Shown piece by piece: positions 15,683-42,378 of a stretch of 64,000 bases of DNA. The stretch's first letter is position 1, and each line of letters begins with the position of its first letter. Origin of the DNA: an uncultured bacterium (GTDB lineage: Bacteria; Fidelibacterota; Marinisomatia; Marinisomatales; AB-629-J13); contig CAYSQB010000001.1 of NCBI GenBank assembly GCA_964433085.1, forward strand, positions 16,845-80,844. Direction: 5' to 3'. The notes beneath the pieces were generated by a model. That model did no database searches. It worked only from the letters and a program-made list of their open reading frames with translations, and was not told the origin of the DNA. A program made the translations under genes and the position numbers.

Positions 15683-17311
15683 TCACTCACTCCTTAAAAT
15701 GATATTACCTGAATTATTTGCCCGTACCCAGTAACCTCTTCCCGGATAGATAACATCAGCATTAAAATAACTTCCATCATAACCATATATCTCCCCTGTA
15801 AAAACCAACTCTGAGCTGTAGAGCACATCTGCATCTACCGGTGTGGAGATTCCAGAAATGAGATTCCAGCCCTCTGTAAGTGATAGTGTGAGTTCATTGA
15901 TTGGTTGACCTGAAAAATCGGTTGTACCATCAGAAGAAAGTCGCAACAAGTACCCTGTCCCTGGAATGAGCATTGTTTCTGACTGGTATGCATCATCATA
16001 CAAAAACAGCGTACCTGTGTAGGCTTCGGGAAAGAGAGTCTGGTAGTGTATATTGCCAACATCCAGCGCAAGACCAACCATGTTCCAACCTAAGGAATAA
16101 TCTACAGCTACCTGCTGTGGGAGAGTCGGCGATTGTTTACTAAATGACAGTTCACGGGCGCCGAAGGTGCAGGGCGGAGTGAATGGATATTTGTCTGTTA
16201 TGTAGTAACCGTAATCTCCGTTCACATCGTAGGCACCATTGCACTCATCAAGATTTCCCGTACCAGCGAAATACCAGTCCTCTTCATAACGCCCCATTTC
16301 GAGTCCAAAGTCGCAGTCGAAATCATCGGGATTGTTCGCGATATCCCAAGGGGTAGGTGGGGTGCCGTGTAAAGCAGTTTCTATTGGTGTGCGTGAATTG
16401 CCTGTATAGGTTTCGTAACCGGATTCAGCTCTCACCAGTTGGTTGTTAGCGTTGATGAACCAATGCCCATAGATCGGAAAGCCATCTGGTGCGAATCCGA
16501 TAACAGGGGAAGCATCGCCGTTGGAAGGCGGCTGCGTTTGATCCGTATCTTCCTGCAGAGGATGGGTTAACGCATGGTAGTGGTAAGTGCCTTCATACCC
16601 ATGTGCAAAATAACTGTCAAACACGGCAGCCATATATTCTGCATCTGGTTGCCAAATCGTATACGCCGGTAACTCAAACCACGAATTTTGCGGACCGCAC
16701 CCCGAGGTATTGCAGGCCTCATTTGACTGCAGATATGGTGGTCCCGTGGTCACGCCCGGGTTATAGCAGAAACCGGAATCCATGGAAATGCCAACTCCAT
16801 TCAATAAAATACCATCAAAGTCGTAGGTAGGCGGATTTCTTGGAGTGTCTGTTTCTATATCAGTTCGGATTGGATCTACAGGAATATAGGTCACTTCTAT
16901 ATCCGAATGATCGATTGGATGTATCCAGCCATCACCATTAGGGCCGGTGACTTCCACACCGAAGTTATGATTCGGGATCATATTAGAAATAATTCTGCAA
17001 TGAGTCGCAAGCTCCGGCTCATTGGTAAACGTCACGTTGTCATAGTCATAGGCACTGGCATTCCAGCTACTTGCTATGACCAAATCAATATGCACATCGC
17101 TAACGGCGTTGTTGATGTCATTCGACATGTCCAAAATCTGATACGATCCGTAATCACCATCGTTTGCGTCCGTCGCGTAGGCTCTGCAGTCCGGGTTTCT
17201 GTTTATAAGTACCGCATCAAAAAATTGCCCATTCATATCCGGATTAGAGCTGTATATTAACGTGTCGGGCTGACTCCGTCCAAAACTCATCAATAAGAAG
17301 AACGTTAACAA
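15683..17311 (-). CDS. secreted YHYH-domain protein with tandem C-terminal GWN...GxGYxxR repeats
   Basis: GTYHYHALTHP plus GFAPDGFPIYG (YHYH domain), with a hydrophobic N-terminus. GC is clearly higher than in the flanking genes. The start may be ATA at 17332-17330 (see findings). Confidence 0.75.
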   Translation of the reverse strand: MLTFFLLMSFGRSQPDTLIYSSNPDMNGQFFDAVLINRNPDCRAYATDANDGDYGSYQILDMSNDINNAVSDVHIDLVIASSWNASAYDYDNVTFTNEPELATHCRIISNMIPNHNFGVEVTGPNGDGWIHPIDHSDIEVTYIPVDPIRTDIETDTPRNPPTYDFDGILLNGVGISMDSGFCYNPGVTTGPPYLQSNEACNTSGCGPQNSWFELPAYTIWQPDAEYMAAVFDSYFAHGYEGTYHYHALTHPLQEDTDQTQPPSNGDASPVIGFAPDGFPIYGHWFINANNQLVRAESGYETYTGNSRTPIETALHGTPPTPWDIANNPDDFDCDFGLEMGRYEEDWYFAGTGNLDECNGAYDVNGDYGYYITDKYPFTPPCTFGARELSFSKQSPTLPQQVAVDYSLGWNMVGLALDVGNIHYQTLFPEAYTGTLFLYDDAYQSETMLIPGTGYLLRLSSDGTTDFSGQPINELTLSLTEGWNLISGISTPVDADVLYSSELVFTGEIYGYDGSYFNADVIYPGRGYWVRANNSGNIILRSE

Positions 17312-17343: not shown

Positions 17344-17510
17344 GATTCAGTTAAAAGGTCTAATAGATAATACATCTTGATGCAGAAAATGTCAATGATA
17401 GATATCACAGCCTAATTCCACCTGTTTTGTGTGAGAGATGGTTATATCTAAAACACAGGGGATTCCCCCAATGTGTGGATGAGGGGGGCTGTATTTAATT
17501 TTTATTCTAT

Positions 17511-18746
17511 TTATGTTTCCGTTTTGATAAAATATATAGAAATGGCCAAAGATATAAACAAATATAACGCTACTAAAATGGAGATTGATGGACCTGAACC
17601 AAACCAAGTTAAGTCATTTATGCCTAAGCATATTAATCCCACAGTGAGCTTAACGCATTCGATATATATTGCATATTTGTTATTGTCCAAAAGAGAGGTA
17701 TATGCAAAAACGTGAACAACCAAAAATAATGCATAAAGCAGCGCAGAAGGAGTGCTAACAGATGAGCTGAGGACCAAAAGGTGAAACATAAGCGCTACCC
17801 CAACGGACATTTGTATGCACGACCAGTAAATTAAAGAGATAGAATTTTCAGTTTTATATTTAACCTGTTCAGAGGGGTCTTCTATGGTTTTAACAGAATG
17901 TTTTAGCTTAACATCGTCCGGCCTCCACCCTGTTGGCATGAACCAAATCCTTATCTTGTCCCACACCCTTTCAGTGCGTACAGCATCCTTTATCAATTGC
18001 CAAATATGTTTAAAATTGATAACAACAGGGTTCCATGTTTTTGCAGGACGGAGTATCCCGTAAACCGGTTTTACATCCGGCAATTCAGACTGGAACGAAC
18101 CGAACATCTTATCCCAGATAATAAAGATCTGACTGTAGTTCTTATCAAGATACTCTGGGTTGATGGCATGGTGAACGCGATGGTGAGAGGGGGTAACAAT
18201 TATATTTTCCAGCCACCCCAGTTTATCTATGAGCCGTGTGTGGTACCAAAACTGCATAAATAAATGAATGGGACCGATGACAACAAAAATGTATGCCGGT
18301 ATTCCTAGAAAGGCAGCGGGGACCATAAATATTGCCCCAAATCTTACTGTATCTGAGATTGACTGACGAAGGGCACAGGAGAGGTTAAACTCTTCACTGC
18401 TGTGGTGAACAACATGTCGGTTCCAAAAAACGTTTATACGGTGATCCATTCGGTGTATCCAGTAACCTGAAAAATCTTTAACAATAAATGCTATGACCAC
18501 CGCCACCCAGACTGGCTCAAGTTTGTACACCGTTAATTTGTCCACGAGCCAGGAATAGCTAATGAGAATAAATCCAAAATTTATTCCGTCACGAACTGTA
18601 TTTGTTACCCCTGAACTTAGGCTCGATATAATATCTGCAGGACGGTTGACTCTAATTCCCATTCGCCCTGCCGCCACCGCTTCGATTCCTATCAATATGA
18701 GAAAGATCGGTATAGCAAACATTAAAGATGTAACGTAAAAACTCAT
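17511..18746 (-). CDS. fatty acid hydroxylase/sterol desaturase family membrane protein with extra C-terminal 4-TM module
   Basis: His boxes HRMDH, HVVHH and HHRVHH, plus NYSQIFIIWDKMFGS. About 130 extra hydrophobic residues at the C-terminus. Confidence 0.85.
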   Translation of the reverse strand: MSFYVTSLMFAIPIFLILIGIEAVAAGRMGIRVNRPADIISSLSSGVTNTVRDGINFGFILISYSWLVDKLTVYKLEPVWVAVVIAFIVKDFSGYWIHRMDHRINVFWNRHVVHHSSEEFNLSCALRQSISDTVRFGAIFMVPAAFLGIPAYIFVVIGPIHLFMQFWYHTRLIDKLGWLENIIVTPSHHRVHHAINPEYLDKNYSQIFIIWDKMFGSFQSELPDVKPVYGILRPAKTWNPVVINFKHIWQLIKDAVRTERVWDKIRIWFMPTGWRPDDVKLKHSVKTIEDPSEQVKYKTENSISLIYWSCIQMSVGVALMFHLLVLSSSVSTPSALLYALFLVVHVFAYTSLLDNNKYAIYIECVKLTVGLICLGINDLTWFGSGPSISILVALYLFISLAISIYFIKTET

Positions 18747-18762
18747 TTCTGGATGCTATCTG

Positions 18763-19641
18763 TTATACAGCAGGTTGGCAAAATAAATTTTTCCCTTCAA
18801 ATTTTTTTGTACCATTGATATAGCTGTAGTATTTCCTGCATTCACAGGAAAGATATTCAATATCAATTGGTGTGAATTTTCGCTTGGCTTCCGGCCAATA
18901 AACAGACTGAAACTCAATCATTCTCTCTGCAACCTCTTGATGGTTGGAGCAGTGGAGGTGTTGCTGCAATAGATTAAGGTAGGGCTCTGCACCAATGCCA
19001 GTTGGAACTGGGCTATCAGGGCTAATCAAGTCTGGTCTAAATAGGGCTAGATCAACCAAAGCCATAAAAATAGGAAATTCATTTGTCATATTGAGTTGTG
19101 CATTGATCTTACGGTTGGCAATCATTACATCTCCCCCAGAATCAAGAATACTTTTTTCTATGAAACCAATAGATCTGGGGAACATTTCTATGCACGCTTC
19201 AATCCTGTTGAAAACTCTACCATCCCATTTGGCTGGAACAACCGGGTATACGTCTGATTGCCACGGAACTTGAACTCCCTCTATCAGAGCTTTCCTGAGT
19301 ACAGAAGGTGATTTCAAAATATCAGGTTCAAGGGCATTCAATGTGGTGTCACGATTGCACCATCGGGCAAAAAACAGTGCGTGAATCAAATCGCTCTGTG
19401 TTTCTGTTTTGTCTGCAAAACGCAAGACCGCTTTTGTGCCTTTATCGTCTTCACGAAAAACATTTAGAAATCGGCCTTTTTGAAAAACGGGATCTGAGGT
19501 CCAGGGAAACGAGTCTCCAGCTTTTCGTTTTATTCGAATACTTTCTCTTTCAATGCACCAAGTAAAAAAAGATTGAACAGGGTCGGAGATATTCAGGCCA
19601 TCCAAAGCATTTTGATATGGATGTTTGCTCTTTGTATTCAT
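18763..19641 (-). CDS. hypothetical; resembles phage-type thymidine-hypermodification family (aGPT-pyrophosphorylase / 5-hmdU kinase helical domain-like)
   Basis: WCIERESIRIKRKAGDSFPWTSDPVFQKGRFLNVFREDDKGT, ...PTGIGAEP... and C-terminal IDIEYLSCECRKY match my recollection of that family. Not verified. Confidence 0.45.
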   Translation of the reverse strand: MNTKSKHPYQNALDGLNISDPVQSFFTWCIERESIRIKRKAGDSFPWTSDPVFQKGRFLNVFREDDKGTKAVLRFADKTETQSDLIHALFFARWCNRDTTLNALEPDILKSPSVLRKALIEGVQVPWQSDVYPVVPAKWDGRVFNRIEACIEMFPRSIGFIEKSILDSGGDVMIANRKINAQLNMTNEFPIFMALVDLALFRPDLISPDSPVPTGIGAEPYLNLLQQHLHCSNHQEVAERMIEFQSVYWPEAKRKFTPIDIEYLSCECRKYYSYINGTKKFEGKNLFCQPAV

Positions 19642-19647
19642 TTTTTA

Positions 19648-21354
19648 TTAAGGCAATTGTCCCACATGAAAATTAAGTTGTAATTCCTGTCCAAAGTCTG
19701 GTTTGAATTCATGTAAAATATCACCGTTCATAGCTGTAAATTTTATTTCACCGTTTATTCCCACTTTTTCTGGAGCACTGTTTCTGTACCACCAGTGTTT
19801 GGAAATACCGTCTTCTAAATCATCTTTTAATAAAAATTGGTAGAAACCCTTTTTAAGGTCAATCTGAAAATTATATTTGGTTGAATCACTAAAAACATCT
19901 TCGGTATAAAATACAGTTCCGTTTATATCTGAAAGTGTAAATGAGTTTTCTTGTGCCCGATTTATATTATTTGTTTTTATGGATAAGGTGAATTCTTTAG
20001 GAAATACTTTTGGTAGAAGAACAGTGGTAGTAAGAAAATTATTGTAAGTATTTTCATCTTTTTGATGATTGGGGTTTTTTGTCTCAACCACAAAAGATTG
20101 ATTTTTTCTCAAACCTCTCCAGCTTGGGAGAGGGAGCACAACCTCTTCCTCCTCAAGAAACACTAAATCTCCTGACCACTGGTAAACAGATTTTCTGTTG
20201 TGTTTAAGCCCATAACGCACTTCAACAGTTTTTAGATTATATTTACCGGAATTTTTAATGATAATTCTCGGGTTGGACAAAGTAGGGTTCATTCGGCTGT
20301 GCTTGTTTTGACTGCTGGGTGTAATGATATCTATCAACTCAACATCATTTTTAAAGTTGGGTTTGCCATAACTGATAAGTTGGTGGGACATTCGAAGGGT
20401 GCCATTTTTTTCTCCATCATCGAAATATTTTTGAATACTGTAATTTAAATTGATTGAATCCTTTGGATTAACAAATGGGGTCAGCTCAAAATCGTATTCA
20501 TCAACCTTAGTACCAGGGCACCAACCCGCTCGATCAAAAGGCCAAGTCCCTCCCTGTGGATAGATGGGGTTATTTCCACAGTCCTTCCACACGTTCCACC
20601 TAAACAACTCCCATCCGTTCATGTACCATGTATGGGTTTTACTGTCCCATTCACAGCAGTTTCTGGGGCCCTCATGCCCGTGACCTGAGATCACAGACTT
20701 CAATTTGTATCCCCGAGCATTTGGGATTAAAGCAATTTTTTTATTTGTTAGAATGGAGTCATCAGCGAGCTCCCCATATTTAAAATTTCCATATGGGTAA
20801 ACATTTTCCACCTTTAAAATATTTCGTGGTGGGGTTCCTTTTATAAAATGAAATTTTATATCTAATAGTTCTTGGTTATTTCCAACAATGAGTTCACGAT
20901 TTCCTCTGAGAATAGGTGAATAATCTGTCATATCGTAGGTCCATTCCCATCCCTCTTCTCCACCAAGAAAAAGTCGTTTCCCATAGGGTGTAACAAAGCT
21001 GCCGATACTAAATGTCTCTGTGGTATCTCCACGGGGTACCTTAACAAAAGTATTCCAAATATAATCCCATTCTCCACAGGGATATTTATCTCCTTTTGTT
21101 AATGAATCACATTTTAGGGTTTGTACCATGATAATCTTTGCCCACAGTTCATCTATTTCCGGAAAATGGGCAAATGTTTTGTATGGGGCATTCCATCCCT
21201 CAGGGCTTGGAGTTTTAAAAGTGATTGGATTGATGGTAAGGGTGTCCCCCACATCCATGCCGGACAGAGCAATCGATTTTGATAGAAAACAAAATATAGG
21301 GAGAAAATATATTACGTTAAGAAATAAAATATGTGAATTTCGTTTTTTTGTCAT
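19648..21354 (-). CDS. secreted PNGase-F-like domain protein
   Basis: Signal peptide. SGHGHEGPRNCCEWDSKTHTWYMNG and FDRAGWCPG resemble the peptide-N-glycosidase F C-terminal domain, followed by additional beta-rich C-terminal domains. Confidence 0.5.
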   Translation of the reverse strand: MTKKRNSHILFLNVIYFLPIFCFLSKSIALSGMDVGDTLTINPITFKTPSPEGWNAPYKTFAHFPEIDELWAKIIMVQTLKCDSLTKGDKYPCGEWDYIWNTFVKVPRGDTTETFSIGSFVTPYGKRLFLGGEEGWEWTYDMTDYSPILRGNRELIVGNNQELLDIKFHFIKGTPPRNILKVENVYPYGNFKYGELADDSILTNKKIALIPNARGYKLKSVISGHGHEGPRNCCEWDSKTHTWYMNGWELFRWNVWKDCGNNPIYPQGGTWPFDRAGWCPGTKVDEYDFELTPFVNPKDSINLNYSIQKYFDDGEKNGTLRMSHQLISYGKPNFKNDVELIDIITPSSQNKHSRMNPTLSNPRIIIKNSGKYNLKTVEVRYGLKHNRKSVYQWSGDLVFLEEEEVVLPLPSWRGLRKNQSFVVETKNPNHQKDENTYNNFLTTTVLLPKVFPKEFTLSIKTNNINRAQENSFTLSDINGTVFYTEDVFSDSTKYNFQIDLKKGFYQFLLKDDLEDGISKHWWYRNSAPEKVGINGEIKFTAMNGDILHEFKPDFGQELQLNFHVGQLP

Positions 21355-38984: not shown

Positions 38985-39682
38985 TAATAGTCCCGACCAA
39001 TATCTTCGGTAATTTTACCGTCAAACAATCGAATCATACGATGAGCGTGTTTTGCAATACCATCTTCGTGGGTCACCAAAATAATGGTGTTCCCCTTCTT
39101 ATGAAGCAGATCAAGGATTTCCATTATCTCATTGCCGCTTTTTGAATCAAGATTCCCTGTTGGTTCATCTGCAAGTAGTATGGATGGATTATTCACTAAA
39201 GCTCTAGCTATAGAAACCCGTTGACGCTGTCCGCCTGACAATTCATTAGGCTTGTGATGCATTCGATCGGCCAACCCTACACTTTCAAGAGCATCTGATG
39301 CCATCTTCATCCTTTCATCCTTTCTAATATTTGCATATACCAGAGGGATCTCTACATTATGATGTGCAGTTGCTTTTGGCAGCAGATTGAAGGTTTGAAA
39401 GACAAATCCAATCTTACGGTTTCGGATGGATGCCAGTTGGGCATCATCCATTACCTGAACCATTTCCCCTTCAAATTCATATACACCGTCTGTAGGGGTA
39501 TCCAGGCACCCAATCATATTCATTAACGTCGATTTTCCGGAACCGGAAGGGCCCATAATGGCTAAATATTCATTCTCTCTGATTTCCAGGTCTATGCCAT
39601 CCAATGCCCTAACTTCCTCTCCGCCTACATGATATATCTTATAAATATCTTTGAGTGAGATAAGAGTCAAATCTGAATCCAA
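38984..39682 (-). CDS. ABC transporter ATP-binding protein (MacB/LolD-like)
   Basis: [24 protein letters not shown] and [11 protein letters not shown]. Confidence 0.93.
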
Positions 39683-39691
39683 GAAGGTTTG

Positions 39692-41008
39692 TTAGTCTCC
39701 AACCCCATCTTTAATACCTTCACGATTTTTGTCAGATTTTTCATTATCTTTTCTTGGATATATCTTAACGGAAACAAAAGTACCATGATTCAATTCTTTA
39801 CTTAAAACCCTGTAGCCTCCGGTGACAACCATCTCATTTTCTGAGACTCCTGACTTTACTGCATAATGGTTCTCGCTGGAGATACCAACAGTGACAGGTC
39901 TTACCAAAGCATATTTCCCCCCCTCTGGAGCAGTTTTTCCATCAAATTTGTCTTCTAAAATAAATACAACGTCAATTGTATTCTTTTTGGATAGGAAACT
40001 ATTATTTTCTTTTTCATCATCTTTTTCGCCTCTGTTTTCCTTACCATTTTTATTATCGTTTTCGATCTCATTATACTTTTCCGGTCTAGAAGTCAGGGAC
40101 TGGATAGGAATTGATATTGTATTTTTAATGGTTTCAGAGATGATATTGACTGTACTACTCATGCCGGGCCTTATTTTATCTGGGGGATCAATCATCCTCA
40201 CTTTCACTTTAAAATTAGTGACCTGTTGCTGACTACCCATGTTTAATGATTGCGCTGTGTGGGCTATTTCACTGACAACTCCATAAAATACTGTATCCGT
40301 TAAGGCATCGATCTCAATTTCAGAGGTATCACCTATATCAATATTTACCACATCATTTTCATTTACATCCACCTCAACTTCCATCCTACTAAGATCAGCA
40401 ACAGTCATGAGGACTCCCGGATTAAACATCCCGCCCACAGCCATTTCTCCCACCTCCTTTGTTAAGCTCGTAACAATACCATATTTGGGAGCCATTATTC
40501 GGGTCTTGGAAAGTTCATCTTCTGCAGATAATAAATTTGCTTTTGCTTGTTCTGACTGGCTGACAGCCATTTGGTAGGATGCTTCAATTTGCTCCAGTTC
40601 CTGTTCGGAAATTAATTTTTGAGAAAAAAGCGTTTTTGTGCGGTTTAGCTGGGAGTGAACCTTCAGGAGATTTGCTTCTGAAGATTTAACTTGAGATAAA
40701 GCTTGATTGTATCGTGGGCGGTATTGTTTTTCATCAATGCTGATTAAGTGCTGACCGGGATGAACGGTATCACCCTCTAAAACTGTAATTTCGGTAATCC
40801 ATCCTGTGATTGTGGATGTAATTTGAACTTCTTGCTCTGGTTGGATCCTGCCGCTTGCATTCACTTTGTGTATAATATCTGTCCGTTTTACTGTTTCAGC
40901 TTCCACGATGATTGCTTCATCCCTTGAACGGCTGAGAAATCCTGCTATTATAAGAACAATTAAAACTAGGGGTATCCATACCTTTTTTTTCTTTAAAACT
41001 GATAGCAT
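39692..41008 (-). CDS. efflux periplasmic adaptor (HlyD/MacA family)
   Basis: Signal anchor, coiled-coil hairpin and barrel-sandwich motifs. A D/E/K/N low-complexity insert spans aa 308-343 (nt 39980-40087). Confidence 0.85.
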   Translation of the reverse strand: MLSVLKKKKVWIPLVLIVLIIAGFLSRSRDEAIIVEAETVKRTDIIHKVNASGRIQPEQEVQITSTITGWITEITVLEGDTVHPGQHLISIDEKQYRPRYNQALSQVKSSEANLLKVHSQLNRTKTLFSQKLISEQELEQIEASYQMAVSQSEQAKANLLSAEDELSKTRIMAPKYGIVTSLTKEVGEMAVGGMFNPGVLMTVADLSRMEVEVDVNENDVVNIDIGDTSEIEIDALTDTVFYGVVSEIAHTAQSLNMGSQQQVTNFKVKVRMIDPPDKIRPGMSSTVNIISETIKNTISIPIQSLTSRPEKYNEIENDNKNGKENRGEKDDEKENNSFLSKKNTIDVVFILEDKFDGKTAPEGGKYALVRPVTVGISSENHYAVKSGVSENEMVVTGGYRVLSKELNHGTFVSVKIYPRKDNEKSDKNREGIKDGVGD

Positions 41009-41017
41009 AATGTTTCC

Positions 41018-42304
41018 TTATTTCATTCCAAAATCTGTGTTTAGCTCACCCGTTAATGCCTTTAGAGAAGTTGCTGATATCCAAAAATCAAATTTCATAT
41101 TCACCCATATTGTCTTGGCTAGGTTTAGGGATACCTGTGCATCCAGAACCTCTAAAATGGTTGCGGCTCCCAAAGAATATCTTTCCTGAACAAGGATTAA
41201 ATCCTCCTGAGCAGATTCTACAACTTGAGACTGAATTGGTAGGATATCCGTATATTGATTTAGAATTTCTAATAGGTCAAGTGCTCGAACATTGAGGTTT
41301 TCTTTTAAGGAGGTATAATCATCTGTTGTCTGGTTCCACTCAATTCTTTTCTGTTCTATTTGTGTAGACAAACTATTTCCTGTGTAGATGGGTACAGATA
41401 TAGAAATATTTACCCCAAGATTCCAATCTTCTTTAAAGTTCTCCATCCACTCCTTTGAATTTTCACCTACAACGGAGTAATTTAATCCTGCATCTATAGA
41501 GGGGAGCCTCATTCCTCTGGAAATCATATAATTGAGTTTTGCCGATTGTATTTGAGATTGCTGACTTAGAAGATCAGGGTTTTTTTCTTCAATTATAATT
41601 AATATTTTTTCTTTTTCTGGTAATTGATATGTTAGGATGTCTTTTGTGAAGTGCATGAATTGCTCCCTACCATCGGCAATACCCATGGTGTGAAAGAAAC
41701 TTCGTCTTGCGCTACGAAGAGCCTGATCAGAGCGAAGGAATTCCGATTGAGCCTGCCCCCTGGTTACTTCCCCTTTCAGGAGATCCGTTTTTTTTACTGC
41801 CCCCAGGCCAAATTTAGCTTTCACCAGATCCAATTGCTTTTCTGATAAAGACAGATTTTGGCCTGCGACTTCCTTCAATTCATTCGCCTTTAAGAATTCA
41901 AAATAGCCATGGATTATATCCCGAATAATTCTTAATCGGGTAGATTGATAACTAAGACTTGCGATTTGAAAAAATGATTTTGCTTGCTTTACTTGGTTTA
42001 TTGTTTGTCCTCCATCGTACACTTTTTGAGTGACTTGAATTCCACCAGACATTGTCTGAGAATAGGTAGAAGGGGATATGTTCGTTTTAGGGAAATAGGT
42101 TCGGTTCACATTTCCGGAAAAACCAACTGATGGTAACAGATTACTAAATGAGGTTTTTACAGATTTTTCAGCAACTAATTTTCCGGACGACGCTGATTTA
42201 AGGGTGCTCTTGTTATTGAGTCCGATTTGGATGCAATCTTTCAAGGACAATTCCTGAGAAAGTGCAATAACGAGAAAAAGAAAAAATAAAATTATTGGTT
42301 TCAT
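41018..42304 (-). CDS. TolC family outer-membrane efflux protein
   Basis: Signal peptide and two TolC-type helical/beta repeats; 428 aa; heads the efflux operon. Confidence 0.85.
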   Translation of the reverse strand: MKPIILFFLFLVIALSQELSLKDCIQIGLNNKSTLKSASSGKLVAEKSVKTSFSNLLPSVGFSGNVNRTYFPKTNISPSTYSQTMSGGIQVTQKVYDGGQTINQVKQAKSFFQIASLSYQSTRLRIIRDIIHGYFEFLKANELKEVAGQNLSLSEKQLDLVKAKFGLGAVKKTDLLKGEVTRGQAQSEFLRSDQALRSARRSFFHTMGIADGREQFMHFTKDILTYQLPEKEKILIIIEEKNPDLLSQQSQIQSAKLNYMISRGMRLPSIDAGLNYSVVGENSKEWMENFKEDWNLGVNISISVPIYTGNSLSTQIEQKRIEWNQTTDDYTSLKENLNVRALDLLEILNQYTDILPIQSQVVESAQEDLILVQERYSLGAATILEVLDAQVSLNLAKTIWVNMKFDFWISATSLKALTGELNTDFGMK

Positions 42305-42378
42305 TGGAGAAGCGAATGACTAATTGTTATACAATTCAAAGTATATAGTTCCTAAGAATATTAATGAAATGACATGAG

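What the first reader, a model, noticed from the sequence alone, without database searches (positions are those of the whole stretch)
18763..19641. Cellular homolog of a phage thymidine-hypermodification-type enzyme in a non-phage operon
The 292-aa protein starts with ...FFTWCIERESIRIKRKAGDSFPWTSDPVFQKGRFLNVFREDDKGTKAV. Later it has ...FMALVDLALFRPDLISPDSPVPTGIGAEPYL... and ends with ...FTPIDIEYLSCECRKYYSY.

From memory, the pattern W.ER..I...K..G.p.PWT.D.i....rF.NVfRE.D..T plus a late GxGa.. and a C-terminal LCE..KY characterises an all-helical family. That family was described in phage DNA base-hypermodification clusters, as alpha-glutamyl/putrescinyl-thymine pyrophosphorylase or the 5-hmdU DNA kinase helical domain, and NCBI often names its members putative DNA base hypermodification protein.

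Here there is no phage context. The gene sits 6 nt after a secreted PNGase-F-like gene and 16 nt before a membrane hydroxylase. Either the family has an unrecognised cellular role, acting on a nucleotide or phosphorylated small-molecule substrate, or this is a lone remnant.
Basis: partly seen in the sequence, partly recalled or inferred. Interest (0 to 1): 0.55.

Follow-up and report, generated by a model that had tools for sequence, protein, structure and literature searches.

The report
Cellular relative of phage thymine-modifying enzymes
This marine bacterium carries an intact, strongly conserved gene related to enzymes that phages use to modify thymine in their DNA. Here it belongs to a purely bacterial, stand-alone branch of unknown function that probably acts on altered thymine or uracil bases in the cell's own DNA.

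Summary
Window 18763-19641 (-) encodes a 292-aa protein that scores 69 bits on Pfam PF18723 (HMUDK_hel, also called aGPT-Pplase clade 1; cutoff 25). Its AlphaFold model (pLDDT 93) matches phage family members at Foldseek probability 1.0.

The family name misleads. The proven 5-hmdU DNA kinase is a separate P-loop protein. Clade 1 has no demonstrated activity and was dispensable in vitro.

The gene belongs to a tight, strictly cellular group of orthologs. Members are 55-70% identical across about ten phyla and sit on contigs up to 3 Mb. None was found in 2.9 million viral contigs. dN/dS is about 0.1.

It is not a remnant, and it has no functional tie to its operon. Twenty-eight related loci have the PNGase-like and hydroxylase genes adjacent without it, so it is a lineage-specific insertion.

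Across 84 loci (44 independent contexts) no partner recurs, and none of the phage hypermodification genes is nearby. A minority clade carries a dedicated AAA_28 kinase, fused or adjacent. Three contexts have DNA-damage-related genes nearby.

The catalytic Glu/Cys motif of the solved paralog PUGT is conserved (E262, C266).

Best reading, at moderate confidence: an autonomous DNA-base-processing enzyme that acts on 5-substituted uracil.

The parts
18763..19641 (-). Gene for a 292-aa stand-alone PF18723 protein (HMUDK_hel, also called aGPT-Pplase clade 1). Predicted cytoplasmic and all-helical.
   Evidence: ORF. Pfam 69 bits against a cutoff of 25. AF2 pLDDT 93.1. BFVD fold matches at probability 1.0. 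dN/dS about 0.1.
19426..19569 (-). N-terminal family signature, residues 25-72: FF.WC.ERE.IR.KR..G...PWT.DP...GRFLNVFREDD.GT. It holds the family-wide invariant residues R32, N60, R63 and D66, and the near-invariant P46, W47, D50 and F58.
   Evidence: Alignments A1 and A2. This is the best-scoring Pfam stretch, residues 22-107. D50-P51 matches Asp24-Pro25 of PUGT by motif. That match is an inference.
18982..19011 (-). Helix-hairpin-helix-like hairpin PVPTGIGAEP, residues 211-220. G217 is invariant and G215 near-invariant across clade 1. Putative DNA-backbone contact.
   Evidence: A2 invariant columns. The HhH nature of the superfamily is stated in PMC13458397 and PMC5889632. Reading this particular motif as an HhH hairpin is my inference.
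18820..18870 (-). Predicted catalytic motif P-I-D-I-E262-Y-L-S-C266-E267-C-R-K270-Y-Y-S-Y, residues 258-274. It corresponds to E243-T-I-L-C247-K-W-K of the solved transferase PUGT.
   Evidence: C266, E267 and K270 are invariant and E262 near-invariant across clade 1. The only profile-profile hit between clade 1 and clade 2 aligns E262 to E243, C266 to C247 and R254 to R235 (E 0.0067). The Cys and the proximal Glu are essential in clade 2 (PMC8989533 section 17; PMC11472151 section 14).
19648..21354 (-). Upstream neighbour, probably co-transcribed: a 568-aa secreted protein with a PNGase-F C-terminal-like domain. Not functionally linked to the finding.
   Evidence: Pfam PF09113. In 28 related loci this gene directly abuts the hydroxylase with no helical gene between them.
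17511..18746 (-). Downstream neighbour, probably co-transcribed: a 411-aa membrane protein of the fatty-acid hydroxylase / sterol desaturase family. Not functionally linked to the finding.
   Evidence: Pfam PF04116. Sub-threshold OlsE-like NCBIfam hit. Synteny without the helical gene. A terminator-like hairpin follows at 17456-17470.

Best explanation
SHOWN.
- The gene encodes an intact, selected, cytoplasmic stand-alone member of Pfam PF18723 (aGPT-Pplase clade 1, 'HMUDK_hel'). It has no P-loop, so it is not a kinase.
- It belongs to a discrete, strictly cellular group of orthologs that is 55-70% identical across about ten bacterial phyla.
- That group behaves as an autonomous single-gene module. 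It occupies 44 different neighbourhoods and has no recurring partner.
- In the window's lineage the gene was inserted into an unrelated PNGase-like/hydroxylase operon.
- A minority sub-clade carries a dedicated AAA_28-type P-loop kinase, fused at the C-terminus or encoded immediately downstream.

INFERRED mechanism.
- Like its solved paralog, the amino-acid:DNA transferase PUGT/AADT, the protein binds duplex DNA through helix-hairpin-helix-type elements and flips out a 5-substituted uracil.
- The likely substrate is 5-hydroxymethyluracil, or its phosphate ester where the kinase is present.
- Cys266 attacks C6 of the base, assisted by Glu262 and a metal. The 5-substituent's leaving group is expelled, giving an exocyclic 5-methylene intermediate.
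- The intermediate is then resolved by a hydride or another nucleophile. The glycine-binding Trp and Lys of the transferase are absent, so the co-substrate differs.

INFERRED role.
- Maintenance or repair of the cell's own DNA. This would mean processing 5-hmU that arises from thymine oxidation or from incorporation of scavenged 5-hmdU.
- The closest analogy is the still-unassigned polymer-level '5-hmdU to thymine' step of hypermodifying phages.
For: Family and fold:
- Pfam and PHROG hits.
- BFVD fold matches at probability 1.0.
- Full-length hhalign to phage clade-1 gp50 at probability 95.5%.

Cellular group of orthologs:
- 1516 homologs, with contigs up to 2.97 Mb.
- 179 genome loci in Neomarinimicrobiota, Verrucomicrobiota, Kiritimatiellae, Planctomycetota, Chloroflexota, Myxococcota, Ca. 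Actinomarina and others.
- A single 50%-identity representative scores 503 bits; the next full-length relative scores about 130 bits.
- 0 hits in IMG/VR.
- At most 24% identity in isolated phages.
- dN/dS 0.09-0.12.

Autonomy:
- 44 independent contexts.
- In a Pfam census of 188 de-duplicated neighbours, no family occurs in more than 3.
- Insertion into a pre-existing operon.

Kinase coupling:
- AAA_28 fusions or split pairs in L038, L039, L042, L047, L057, L070 and L086-L089.
- The same logic holds elsewhere in clade 1: SP10 gp186 is a fusion, PaMx11 gp49 and gp50 are adjacent, and the NTTI P-loop is adjacent.

Catalytic residues:
- C266 is invariant and E262 near-invariant, and they align with C247 and E243 of PUGT.
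- Both residues are essential in clade 2, and borohydride traps the intermediate as thymidine (PMC8989533).

DNA-damage-related neighbours, in three independent contexts:
- umuD-like/umuC followed by the gene, with a conserved palindromic operator, in 9 Ca. Actinomarina loci.
- An AlkD-type DNA_alkylation glycosylase gene upstream in L086/L087.
- DinB_2 upstream in Planctomycetota.

Solitary genes in variable contexts are typical of DNA glycosylase and repair genes (general knowledge).
Against: - There is no biochemical evidence for any clade-1 protein. M6 gp55 was dispensable in the in-vitro reconstitution (PMC8989533).
- The clade-1 to clade-2 residue mapping rests on a weak local hhalign hit (E 0.0067, probability 5.7%) plus motif inspection.
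- The proteins are mildly acidic, median pI 5.6. PUGT is too.
- DNA-repair neighbours appear in only 3 of about 46 contexts.
- Other contexts hint at nucleotide metabolism: NUDIX, a pyrF operon and APH kinases.
- Most loci (all but 6 of the 84 surveyed) have no kinase within +/-8 kb. If phosphorylation is required, its source is unknown.
- No hydride donor or cofactor motif is evident in the sequence.
Confidence: 0.4

Rival explanations
1. Nucleotide-pool or small-molecule pyrimidine enzyme. The helical protein uses the same Cys-at-C6 chemistry on a free 5-hydroxymethyl-pyrimidine nucleotide or nucleoside rather than on DNA. Candidates are 5-hmdUMP scavenged from hmU-rich environmental DNA, or an HMP-like thiamine precursor. 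Where present, the AAA_28 domain phosphorylates the nucleoside.
For: - Relatives of the AAA_28 domain also hit deoxynucleoside-kinase models (PF01712).
- Neighbours include NUDIX, pyrF / DHO-dehydrogenase-like / PRTase-like genes in 5 Ca. Actinomarina loci, and APH small-molecule kinases.
- carAB and pyrB lie nearby in Krumholzibacteria.
- The proteins are acidic.
- Thiaminase II (TenA) uses analogous Cys-at-C6 addition-elimination chemistry (general knowledge).
Against: - Every characterised relative acts on polymeric DNA (PMC8989533; PMC11472151).
- The HhH-like GxG hairpin is invariant across clade 1.
- Each nucleotide-metabolism neighbour is confined to one lineage.
- No thiamine genes were seen in any neighbourhood.
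Confidence: 0.2
2. Anti-phage defence. The protein recognises or derivatises 5-hmdU-containing DNA of invading phages, such as the marine pelagiphages that carry TS plus PPlase1. This would resemble the PF18723 component of the validated E. coli NTTI/DS-4 system.
For: - A cellular PF18723 protein is part of an experimentally validated defence operon made of a TS-like gene, a P-loop, PF18723, TIR and Nmad2 (PMC13092281 supplement).
- The taxonomic distribution is patchy and shows signs of horizontal transfer. The window protein is closer to Verrucomicrobia (69%) than to other Neomarinimicrobiota (at most 61%).
- hmU-type phages are abundant in the ocean (PMC9599517).
Against: - No PADLOC model matches.
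- No TIR, Nmad, TS or other defence genes occur among 188 neighbour clusters.
- The neighbourhoods are housekeeping genes rather than defence islands.
- 55-70% identity across phyla and dN/dS of about 0.1 are atypical of fast-evolving defence genes.
- The NTTI protein scores only 31 bits on the profile built from this group of orthologs.
Confidence: 0.12
3. Chromosomal thymine hypermodification. The enzyme installs a low-level epigenetic 5-substituted-uracil mark in the bacterium's own genome.
For: - It is homologous to enzymes that build hypermodified thymines.
- The catalytic dyad is retained.
- A dedicated kinase is present in a sub-clade.
- NCBI names it 'putative DNA base hypermodification protein'.
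Against: - No source of 5-hmdU (dUMP hydroxymethylase or TET/JBP-type dioxygenase) and no tailoring enzymes (PLP, radical SAM, FAD) occur in any of the 44 contexts.
- The amino-acid-binding Trp146 and Lys150 of clade 2 have no counterpart.
- No cognate restriction or reader gene is linked.
Confidence: 0.1
4. The gene works together with its operon neighbours, the secreted PNGase-F-like protein and the membrane hydroxylase, in a glycan or lipid pathway. Alternatively, it is a decaying remnant of a phage gene.
For: Spacers of 6 nt and 16 nt imply co-transcription. Promoter-like and terminator-like sites bracket the three genes.
Against: - 28 related loci keep the PNGase-like and hydroxylase genes directly adjacent without this gene. 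Only the closest relatives (86-97% identical) have it inserted.
- No PNGase or hydroxylase neighbour occurs in any other lineage.
- The protein has no signal peptide or transmembrane segment (sequence).
- Against the remnant idea: the ORF is intact, dN/dS is about 0.1, and the alignment has 80 invariant columns.
Confidence: 0.03

Closest known systems
Phage aGPT-Pplase clade 1 / HMUDK_hel proteins (PF18723): PaMx11 gp50, M6 gp55, ViI gp160, PhiW-14 gp72, and the C-terminal half of SP10 gp186
   Same: - Same Pfam family. The alignment is full-length (hhalign probability 95.5% to gp50) and the fold is the same (TM 0.57-0.71).
- The invariant residues are shared: R32, N60, R63, D66, R93, N96, D197, G217, C266, E267, K270.
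- There is a recurrent physical association with a P-loop kinase.
   Different: - Only about 20-25% identical.
- The phage proteins sit in hypermodification clusters next to a dUMP hydroxymethylase, the HMUDK P-loop and an AADT. The cellular group has none of these.
- When a kinase partner is present it is AAA_28, not the HMUDK/AAA_33 type, and it is fused in the opposite order.
- The function of the phage proteins is itself unknown. They were dispensable in vitro (PMC8989533).
Amino-acid:DNA transferases (AADT, aGPT-Pplase clade 2, PF18724): PaMx11 gp46 (PUGT), M6 gp51, ViI gp247, YuA and 15599 Pplase2
   Same: - Related fold: BFVD AADT-domain hits at probability 1.0, TM 0.5-0.58.
- Shared C-terminal catalytic motif with the essential Glu and Cys (PMC8989533; PMC11472151).
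- An Asp-Pro motif near the N-terminus, seen by motif comparison.
- This is the best mechanistic model: base flipping, attack by Cys on C6, then an exocyclic methylene intermediate.
   Different: - It does not reach the PF18724 model, and global profile alignment fails.
- It lacks the glycine-binding Trp146 and Lys150, which are invariant in clade 2.
- By motif positions, the stretch between the Asp-Pro motif and the conserved RWC/YWC helix is about 20 residues longer than in gp46. That stretch holds the RFxNxxRExD motif.
- Clade 2 is found on phage-sized contigs of at most 95 kb.
[quoted passage not shown]
   Same: Only the name. Pfam calls PF18723 the 'helical domain' of this kinase because the two are fused in SP10-type proteins.
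   Different: - The window protein has no Walker A motif or P-loop domain.
- The kinase activity resides in the P-loop protein and survives deletion of the helical part (PMC8989533).
- No homolog of either kind of P-loop partner occurs in the 64-kb window.
NTTI / DS-4 anti-phage system of E. coli (DefensePredictor, PMC13092281)
   Same: It contains a stand-alone cellular PF18723 protein (WP_087900470.1, 340 aa, 'putative DNA base hypermodification protein'). That protein has the same E...C-E-x-x-K motif and lies next to a small P-loop kinase.
   Different: - NTTI is a five-gene operon with a thymidylate-synthase-like gene, TIR and Nmad2. None of these is near the gene in any locus surveyed.
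- The NTTI protein is a distant clade-1 member: 139 bits on the broad profile but 31 bits on the profile built from this group of orthologs.
Helix-hairpin-helix DNA glycosylases, and the queuine-salvage glycosylase Qng1/DUF2419
   Same: - All-helical architecture with a GxG hairpin.
- The literature describes the superfamily as glycosylase-like (PMC5889632, PMC13458397, PMC11472151).
- Qng1 is the only non-trivial Foldseek hit in the PDB (probability 0.2-0.35, TM 0.3).
- Like glycosylase genes, the gene is solitary and sits in variable contexts.
   Different: - There is no significant structural or sequence match.
- The conserved catalytic candidates are Cys and Glu, not the Asp or Lys of HhH-GPD enzymes.

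Membership tests
Pfam PF18723 (HMUDK_hel, also called aGPT-Pplase clade 1) | Scores above the curated gathering threshold of the family HMM | tested here: met
   69 bits against a cutoff of 25, E 5.7e-19. PHROG 2396, E 1.2e-20.
Pfam PF18723 (HMUDK_hel, also called aGPT-Pplase clade 1) | Full-length all-alpha fold shared with phage members | tested here: met
   The AF2 model (pLDDT 93.1) has 13 helices. Foldseek against BFVD gives probability 1.0 to proteins of SP10, phiRSL1, PhiW-14 and Lucky3, with TM 0.57-0.71. hhalign to PaMx11 gp50 covers 246 columns at probability 95.5%.
Pfam PF18723 (HMUDK_hel, also called aGPT-Pplase clade 1) | Signature residues: ER...PWT.D...RF.N..RE.D, R..N, D, GxGA, E...CE..KY | tested here: met
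   All family-wide invariant columns of alignment A2 are present in the window protein.
Phage thymidine-hypermodification gene cluster | Linkage to a dUMP hydroxymethylase (TS-like), the 5-HMUDK P-loop kinase, an AADT, and PLP, radical-SAM or FAD tailoring enzymes | tested here: not met
   None of these families occurs among 188 de-duplicated +/-2 neighbours in 84 loci, nor next to the gene in the window. No P-loop partner is in the window. There are no viral contigs.
5-hmdU DNA kinase (the enzyme) | P-loop (Walker A) nucleotide-kinase domain | tested here: not met
   Only PF18723 is detected, and the 292 residues contain no Walker A motif. The literature places the activity in the separate P-loop protein (PMC8989533).
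Amino-acid:DNA transferase (PF18724, clade 2) | Match to the AADT model or profile | tested here: not met
   No PF18724 hit. hhalign of A1 against gp46 finds nothing. A2 against the clade-2 profile A5 gives only a 40-column local hit, E 0.0067.
Amino-acid:DNA transferase (PF18724, clade 2) | Catalytic Cys plus proximal metal-binding Glu | tested here: inconclusive
   E262 and C266 align with E243 and C247 in the only profile-profile hit and are (near-)invariant. The alignment is statistically weak, and no structural superposition was possible.
Amino-acid:DNA transferase (PF18724, clade 2) | Amino-acid-binding Trp146 and Lys150 | tested here: inconclusive
   These residues are invariant in clade 2. 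No conserved Trp or Lys occurs in the presumed equivalent helix NDFPIFMALVDLA. The equivalence is by motif only.
NTTI/DS-4 defence system | Operon of a TS-like gene, a P-loop kinase, PF18723, TIR and Nmad2 | tested here: not met
   No TIR, Nmad2 or TS gene is near any member of this group of orthologs. No PADLOC hit. The NTTI protein scores only 31 bits on the profile built from this group.
Any of the above | Enzymatic activity on 5-hmdU or 5-PmdU in DNA | not testable with these tools
   This needs biochemistry. No clade-1 protein has a demonstrated activity (PMC8989533).

The most novel reading that the evidence does not exclude
The group of orthologs is a previously unrecognised chromosomal DNA-maintenance enzyme of abundant marine bacteria (SAR406, Ca. 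Actinomarina, PVC and others). It would directly reverse or re-derivatise 5-hydroxymethyluracil in duplex DNA by thymidylate-synthase-like covalent catalysis, in some lineages after phosphorylation of the base by a dedicated AAA_28 'DNA-base kinase'. This would be a new direct-reversal repair pathway. It would also identify the long-missing enzyme class behind polymer-level '5-hmdU to thymine' conversion in hypermodifying phages. A variant of this reading is that these bacteria carry a so-far undetected thymine modification in their own genomes.
Probability: 0.2. Interest if true: 0.85.

Novelty: new variant of a known kind. Interest (0 to 1): 0.55.

Why it matters
PF18723 is one of the two universally conserved 'glycosylase-like' components of phage thymidine-hypermodification systems. 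It still has no assigned activity.

This finding identifies a clean, strictly cellular, extremely conserved branch of that family. The branch is stripped of every phage partner gene and is occasionally welded to its own kinase.

That gives experimenters a simple one- or two-protein system in which to discover what clade 1 does.

If it acts on 5-hmU in chromosomal DNA, it would add a new DNA-repair or modification chemistry to some of the most abundant uncultured ocean bacteria. It would probably also explain the unassigned 5-hmdU-to-T step in phages.

At minimum, the work corrects two misleading annotations. [quoted passage not shown] The operon context is an insertion artefact.

Tried and rejected
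1. PDB sequence searches with the protein and with profile A1 gave no meaningful hits.
3. hhalign of the shallow profile A1 against gp46 failed. Broad clade-1 against clade-2 profiles gave only the catalytic-motif hit.
4. A search for a universal operon partner found none. The best neighbour cluster occurs in 10 of 66 loci, and all of those are lineage-specific.
5. No trans-encoded AAA_28 partner is in the window. In the database search the kinase is rare, and in every case examined it is attached to the helical gene. It cannot be a general partner acting in trans.
6. The fused AAA_28 domain was compared with the phage kinase gp49. They share only the Walker A motif, so the two kinase associations are independent. 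The AAA_28 domain has no sequence relative in the PDB.
7. PADLOC defence models gave no hit.
8. Net charge and pI were tried as a DNA-binding discriminator. This was uninformative, because PUGT is equally acidic.
9. APH-kinase enrichment: 3 of 306 near genes against 0 of 613 far genes, but only 2 independent contexts. This is suggestive, not significant.
10. P0453, a ThyX joined to a partial AAA_28 domain on an 847-bp contig, was rejected as a probable chimeric assembly.
11. A four-Cys metal-cluster idea (C29, C95, C266, C268) could not be tested without model coordinates.
12. Iyer et al. 2013, the original family description, is not in the held library.
Full report
OBSERVATION. The ORF is real. 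It runs from ATG to stop at 18763..19641 on the minus strand and encodes 292 aa containing all the quoted peptides. The upstream PNGase-F-like gene (19648..21354) ends 6 nt before its start. The downstream fatty-acid-hydroxylase-family gene (17511..18746) begins 16 nt after its stop. Promoter-like sites precede the PNGase-like gene and a terminator-like hairpin (17456-17470) follows the hydroxylase, so the three genes look co-transcribed. These are consensus matches only. The window is from a Candidatus Neomarinimicrobiota (SAR406) genome; locus L001 is 97% identical.

FAMILY MEMBERSHIP. Pfam gives a single hit, PF18723 'HMUDK_hel', at 69 bits against a cutoff of 25. PHROGs gives phrog_2396, of unknown function. 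NCBIfam gives nothing. An AlphaFold2 model built on a 34-sequence alignment is confident (pLDDT 93.1, pTM 0.89) and all-helical. Foldseek against predicted viral structures returns the SP10 5-hmdU DNA kinase (probability 1.0, TM 0.71). Next come phiRSL1, PhiW-14 and Lucky3 'helical domain' proteins, and at lower scores the amino-acid:DNA-transferase-domain proteins. A profile comparison aligns the protein over its full length with PaMx11 gp50, a stand-alone phage PF18723 protein (probability 95.5%).

WHAT THE FAMILY NAME MEANS. The literature shows that the 5-hmdU DNA kinase activity belongs to a separate P-loop protein: M6 gp54, PaMx11 gp49, or the N-terminal half of SP10 gp186. It persists when the C-terminal part of SP10 gp186 is deleted (PMC8989533). 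By the 2018 domain table (PMC5889632), that deleted part is the clade-1 helical domain.

PF18723 is the former 'aGPT-Pplase clade 1'. It is the paralog of clade 2 (PF18724), which is the proven amino-acid:DNA transferase.

The M6 protein gp55 was dispensable in the in-vitro reconstitution. By synteny with PaMx11 gp50 it is the clade-1 member, although the 2018 and 2021 papers label gp51 and gp55 differently. So clade 1 has no demonstrated activity even in phages.

The clade-2 mechanism is established. An essential Cys, with a proximal Glu and a metal, attacks C6 of flipped-out 5-phosphomethyl-dU. Phosphate leaves, and an exocyclic 5-methylene intermediate is captured by an amino acid. With borohydride the product is thymidine (PMC8989533 section 17; PMC11472151 section 14; PMC13458397).

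These phages also convert the remaining 5-hmdU to canonical thymine before packaging. I found no enzyme assigned to that step in that paper.

A DISCRETE CELLULAR GROUP OF ORTHOLOGS. The large protein database holds 1516 relatives. After the SAR406 self-cluster, the best hits are 57-70% identical proteins of about 290 aa. They come from Verrucomicrobiota, Kiritimatiellae, Chloroflexota, Anaerolineae, Krumholzibacteria and others, on contigs up to 2.97 Mb.

A scan of one genome per species found 179 loci. These add Planctomycetota, Victivallales, Gemmatimonadota, Bacteroidota, Nitrospina, Myxococcota/'Deltaproteobacteria' and many Ca. Actinomarina single-cell genomes. Almost all are aquatic or marine.

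In a 34-sequence alignment spanning phyla, 80 columns are invariant. In the library clustered at 50% identity the whole group collapses to one stand-alone representative (503 bits) plus two kinase-fused ones. The next full-length relatives score about 130 bits or less, out of about 2958 family representatives.

No member was found in 2.9 million viral contigs using motifs specific to this group. Isolated phages hold only relatives that are at most 24% identical. dN/dS against relatives 97% and 89% identical is 0.09 and 0.12.

The window protein is closer to Verrucomicrobia (69%) than to most other Neomarinimicrobiota (at most 61%). This indicates horizontal transfer.

GENOMIC CONTEXT. The operon in the window is incidental. 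A metagenome scan with the hydroxylase returned 80 related loci. In 28 of them the PNGase-like gene directly abuts the hydroxylase with no helical gene between them (gap 5-103 nt in 26), inside the same tatD...metG synteny. Only the closest relatives have PNGase-like, then the helical gene, then the hydroxylase; their helical genes are 86-97% identical to the window's. The gene is thus a lineage-specific insertion of about 0.9 kb into a pre-existing operon.

More widely, 84 loci fall into 44 independent neighbourhoods. In a Pfam census of 188 de-duplicated +/-2 neighbours, no family occurs in more than three. None of the following appears: thymidylate-synthase-like hydroxymethylase, HMUDK P-loop, AADT, PLP or radical-SAM enzymes, TIR or Nmad. 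Tight lineage-specific couplings exist with many unrelated genes, including LptF/G, a teichoic-type glycerophosphotransferase, an Old-Yellow-Enzyme reductase and a pyrF operon.

Two recurrent themes stand out.

(i) Kinases. In a sub-clade from Myxococcota and related lineages, the protein is fused at its C-terminus to an AAA_28 P-loop domain (L039, L042, L047, L057, L070; representatives P0122 and P0123). In other loci that domain is encoded immediately downstream (L038, L086/L087, L088, L089). A database search with the kinase domain found only about 60 close orthologs. Every one examined is attached to a helical gene of this group. It is therefore a dedicated but optional partner. It is unrelated, beyond the Walker A motif, to the phage kinase (AAA_33, Zeta or HMUDK_HMUD1 type), and it is fused in the opposite order to SP10. 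An AAA_18-like P-loop (L015/L084, L011) and APH-type kinases (L006, L074/L078) are adjacent in further contexts.

(ii) DNA damage. In nine Ca. Actinomarina loci the gene follows umuC after a conserved 34-nt spacer. A divergent umuD-like gene and a conserved imperfect palindrome lie at the promoter. In L086/L087 an AlkD-type DNA_alkylation repair gene lies upstream. In Planctomycetota a DinB_2 gene lies two genes upstream. These are three of about 46 contexts, which is suggestive only.

RESIDUE-LEVEL INFERENCE. Across clade 1, phage members included, the invariant residues in window-protein numbering are R32, N60, R63, D66, R93, N96, D197, G217, C266, E267 and K270. E262, W47, D50, G215 and Y271 are nearly invariant.

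The only profile-profile hit between clade 1 and a 28-sequence clade-2 profile is weak (E 0.0067) but lands exactly on the catalytic motif. It pairs E262 with E243, C266 with C247, R254 with R235, and N276-G277 with N254-G255.

The PTGIGA hairpin (residues 213-218) looks like a helix-hairpin-helix DNA-backbone motif. That reading is my inference; the HhH nature of the superfamily comes from PMC13458397 and PMC5889632.

The glycine-binding Trp146 and Lys150 of clade 2 have no evident counterpart, so the co-substrate should differ.

EXPLANATIONS. The best-supported reading (confidence about 0.4 for the mechanistic part, above 0.9 for family and cellular-group membership) is an autonomous, HhH-type, base-flipping enzyme. 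It would use Cys266 and Glu262 for covalent catalysis on a 5-substituted uracil in the cell's own DNA. The most plausible substrate is 5-hmU, phosphorylated first where the AAA_28 kinase is present. This would be a repair or maintenance function.

Its solitary, context-free, strongly conserved and patchily distributed gene behaviour resembles that of accessory DNA glycosylases.

Rivals:
- An enzyme of the nucleotide pool or of small-molecule pyrimidines (0.2). Support comes from NUDIX, pyr and APH neighbours and from the similarity of AAA_28 relatives to deoxynucleoside kinases.
- Anti-phage defence (0.12). The precedent is the NTTI/DS-4 system of E. coli, which contains a distant PF18723 protein. 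Against it: there is no PADLOC hit, no defence-gene neighbours, and very slow evolution.
- Chromosomal thymine hypermodification (0.1). Against it: no 5-hmdU source or tailoring genes are linked.
- Functional linkage to the operon, or a phage remnant (0.03). The synteny and selection tests refute both.

COMPARISON AND NOVELTY. By sequence, fold and signature residues the protein is a member of PF18723. It is not a kinase and not an AADT. It is not part of a phage hypermodification cluster or of an NTTI-type system.

Cellular homologs of the family have been mentioned before (PMC5889632; PMC9599517 Fig. S4) and are auto-named by NCBI. I found no description of this group of orthologs, its extreme conservation, its independence from all known partners, or its dedicated AAA_28 kinase. 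I therefore rate it a new variant of a known kind, with moderate interest (0.55).

Existence alone is unsurprising to a specialist. But the group offers a minimal system for solving the function of clade 1. It might also reveal a new DNA-repair or modification chemistry in abundant marine bacteria.

Noticed in passing
window 15683-17311 (-), with the promoter-like site at 17367-17395: The YHYH-domain gene (542 aa, TTG start) has GC 0.47-0.495 against about 0.37 for the window. It has its own strong promoter-like site (11 of 12). It is absent from related loci, where metG lies 21-572 nt (in 8 loci) or about 1.4-2.5 kb (in 14 loci) from the hydroxylase and no YHYH homolog is detected. It is probably a second, separate acquisition next to the finding.
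   Followed up: partly
window 17511-18746 (-), compared with L090 and L091: In contigs whose helical, PNGase-like and metG genes are 93-97% identical to the window, the hydroxylase is only 77% identical. This suggests a recombination breakpoint near the junction between the helical gene and the hydroxylase. The hydroxylase also has a long multi-transmembrane C-terminal extension and only a sub-threshold OlsE-like hit.
   Followed up: partly
L060, L065, L069, L071-L073, L075, L079 (Ca. Actinomarina), intergenic region between the umuD-like gene and umuC: A conserved imperfect palindrome, GAATAGTGTACAGTATTC, lies between the divergent S24-peptidase (umuD-like) gene and umuC. The helical gene follows umuC after a conserved 34-nt spacer. 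This may be an SOS-type operator. It does not match the classical LexA boxes I know.
   Followed up: partly
L039, L042, L047, L057, L070 (fusions); L038, L086-L089 (split pairs): A dedicated AAA_28 P-loop kinase sub-family is found only fused to, or immediately downstream of, the helical gene. The kinase-linked sub-clade has the signature PWCNVxAYPVEPV where stand-alone members have PWxSEVYPVVPA.
   Followed up: yes
P0453 (847-bp metagenome contig): This protein joins a ThyX (PF02511) N-terminus to the middle of the AAA_28 partner domain and has no Walker A motif. It is probably a chimeric assembly. If real, it would link the module to flavin-dependent thymidylate synthesis.
   Followed up: no
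P0408 (Cymbomonas tetramitiformis assembly): A close ortholog of the AAA_28 partner kinase is deposited as a green-alga protein. It is probably bacterial contamination of the algal assembly.
   Followed up: no
L081 (Pseudomonas phage PaMx11, NC_028770), record positions 39217-39786 and 41734-42330: RefSeq annotates gp49, the biochemically proven 5-hmdU DNA kinase, as 'terminase small subunit'. It also attaches the gene name thyA to an HD-domain protein. In addition, Lee 2018 Table 3 and Lee 2021 Table 1 give opposite clade labels to M6 gp51 and gp55.
   Followed up: no
window 18763-19641 (-), residues C29, C95, C266 and C268: Three Cys (C29, C95, C266) are invariant and a fourth (C268) is nearly invariant in this group of orthologs. 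C95 sits in an RWC motif resembling the invariant YWC (C49) of clade 2. This could be a redox relay or a metal site near the active centre. It could not be tested without model coordinates.
   Followed up: no
L082 (Puniceicoccales CK1056), L083, L059/L063/L068/L076: Reductase-type genes are adjacent in several unrelated contexts. An Old-Yellow-Enzyme ene-reductase overlaps the start of the gene by 8-17 nt in four SAR406 loci. An aldo-keto reductase lies upstream in L082. A nitroreductase is convergent in L083. This could be coincidence, or a hint at a reductive step.
   Followed up: no
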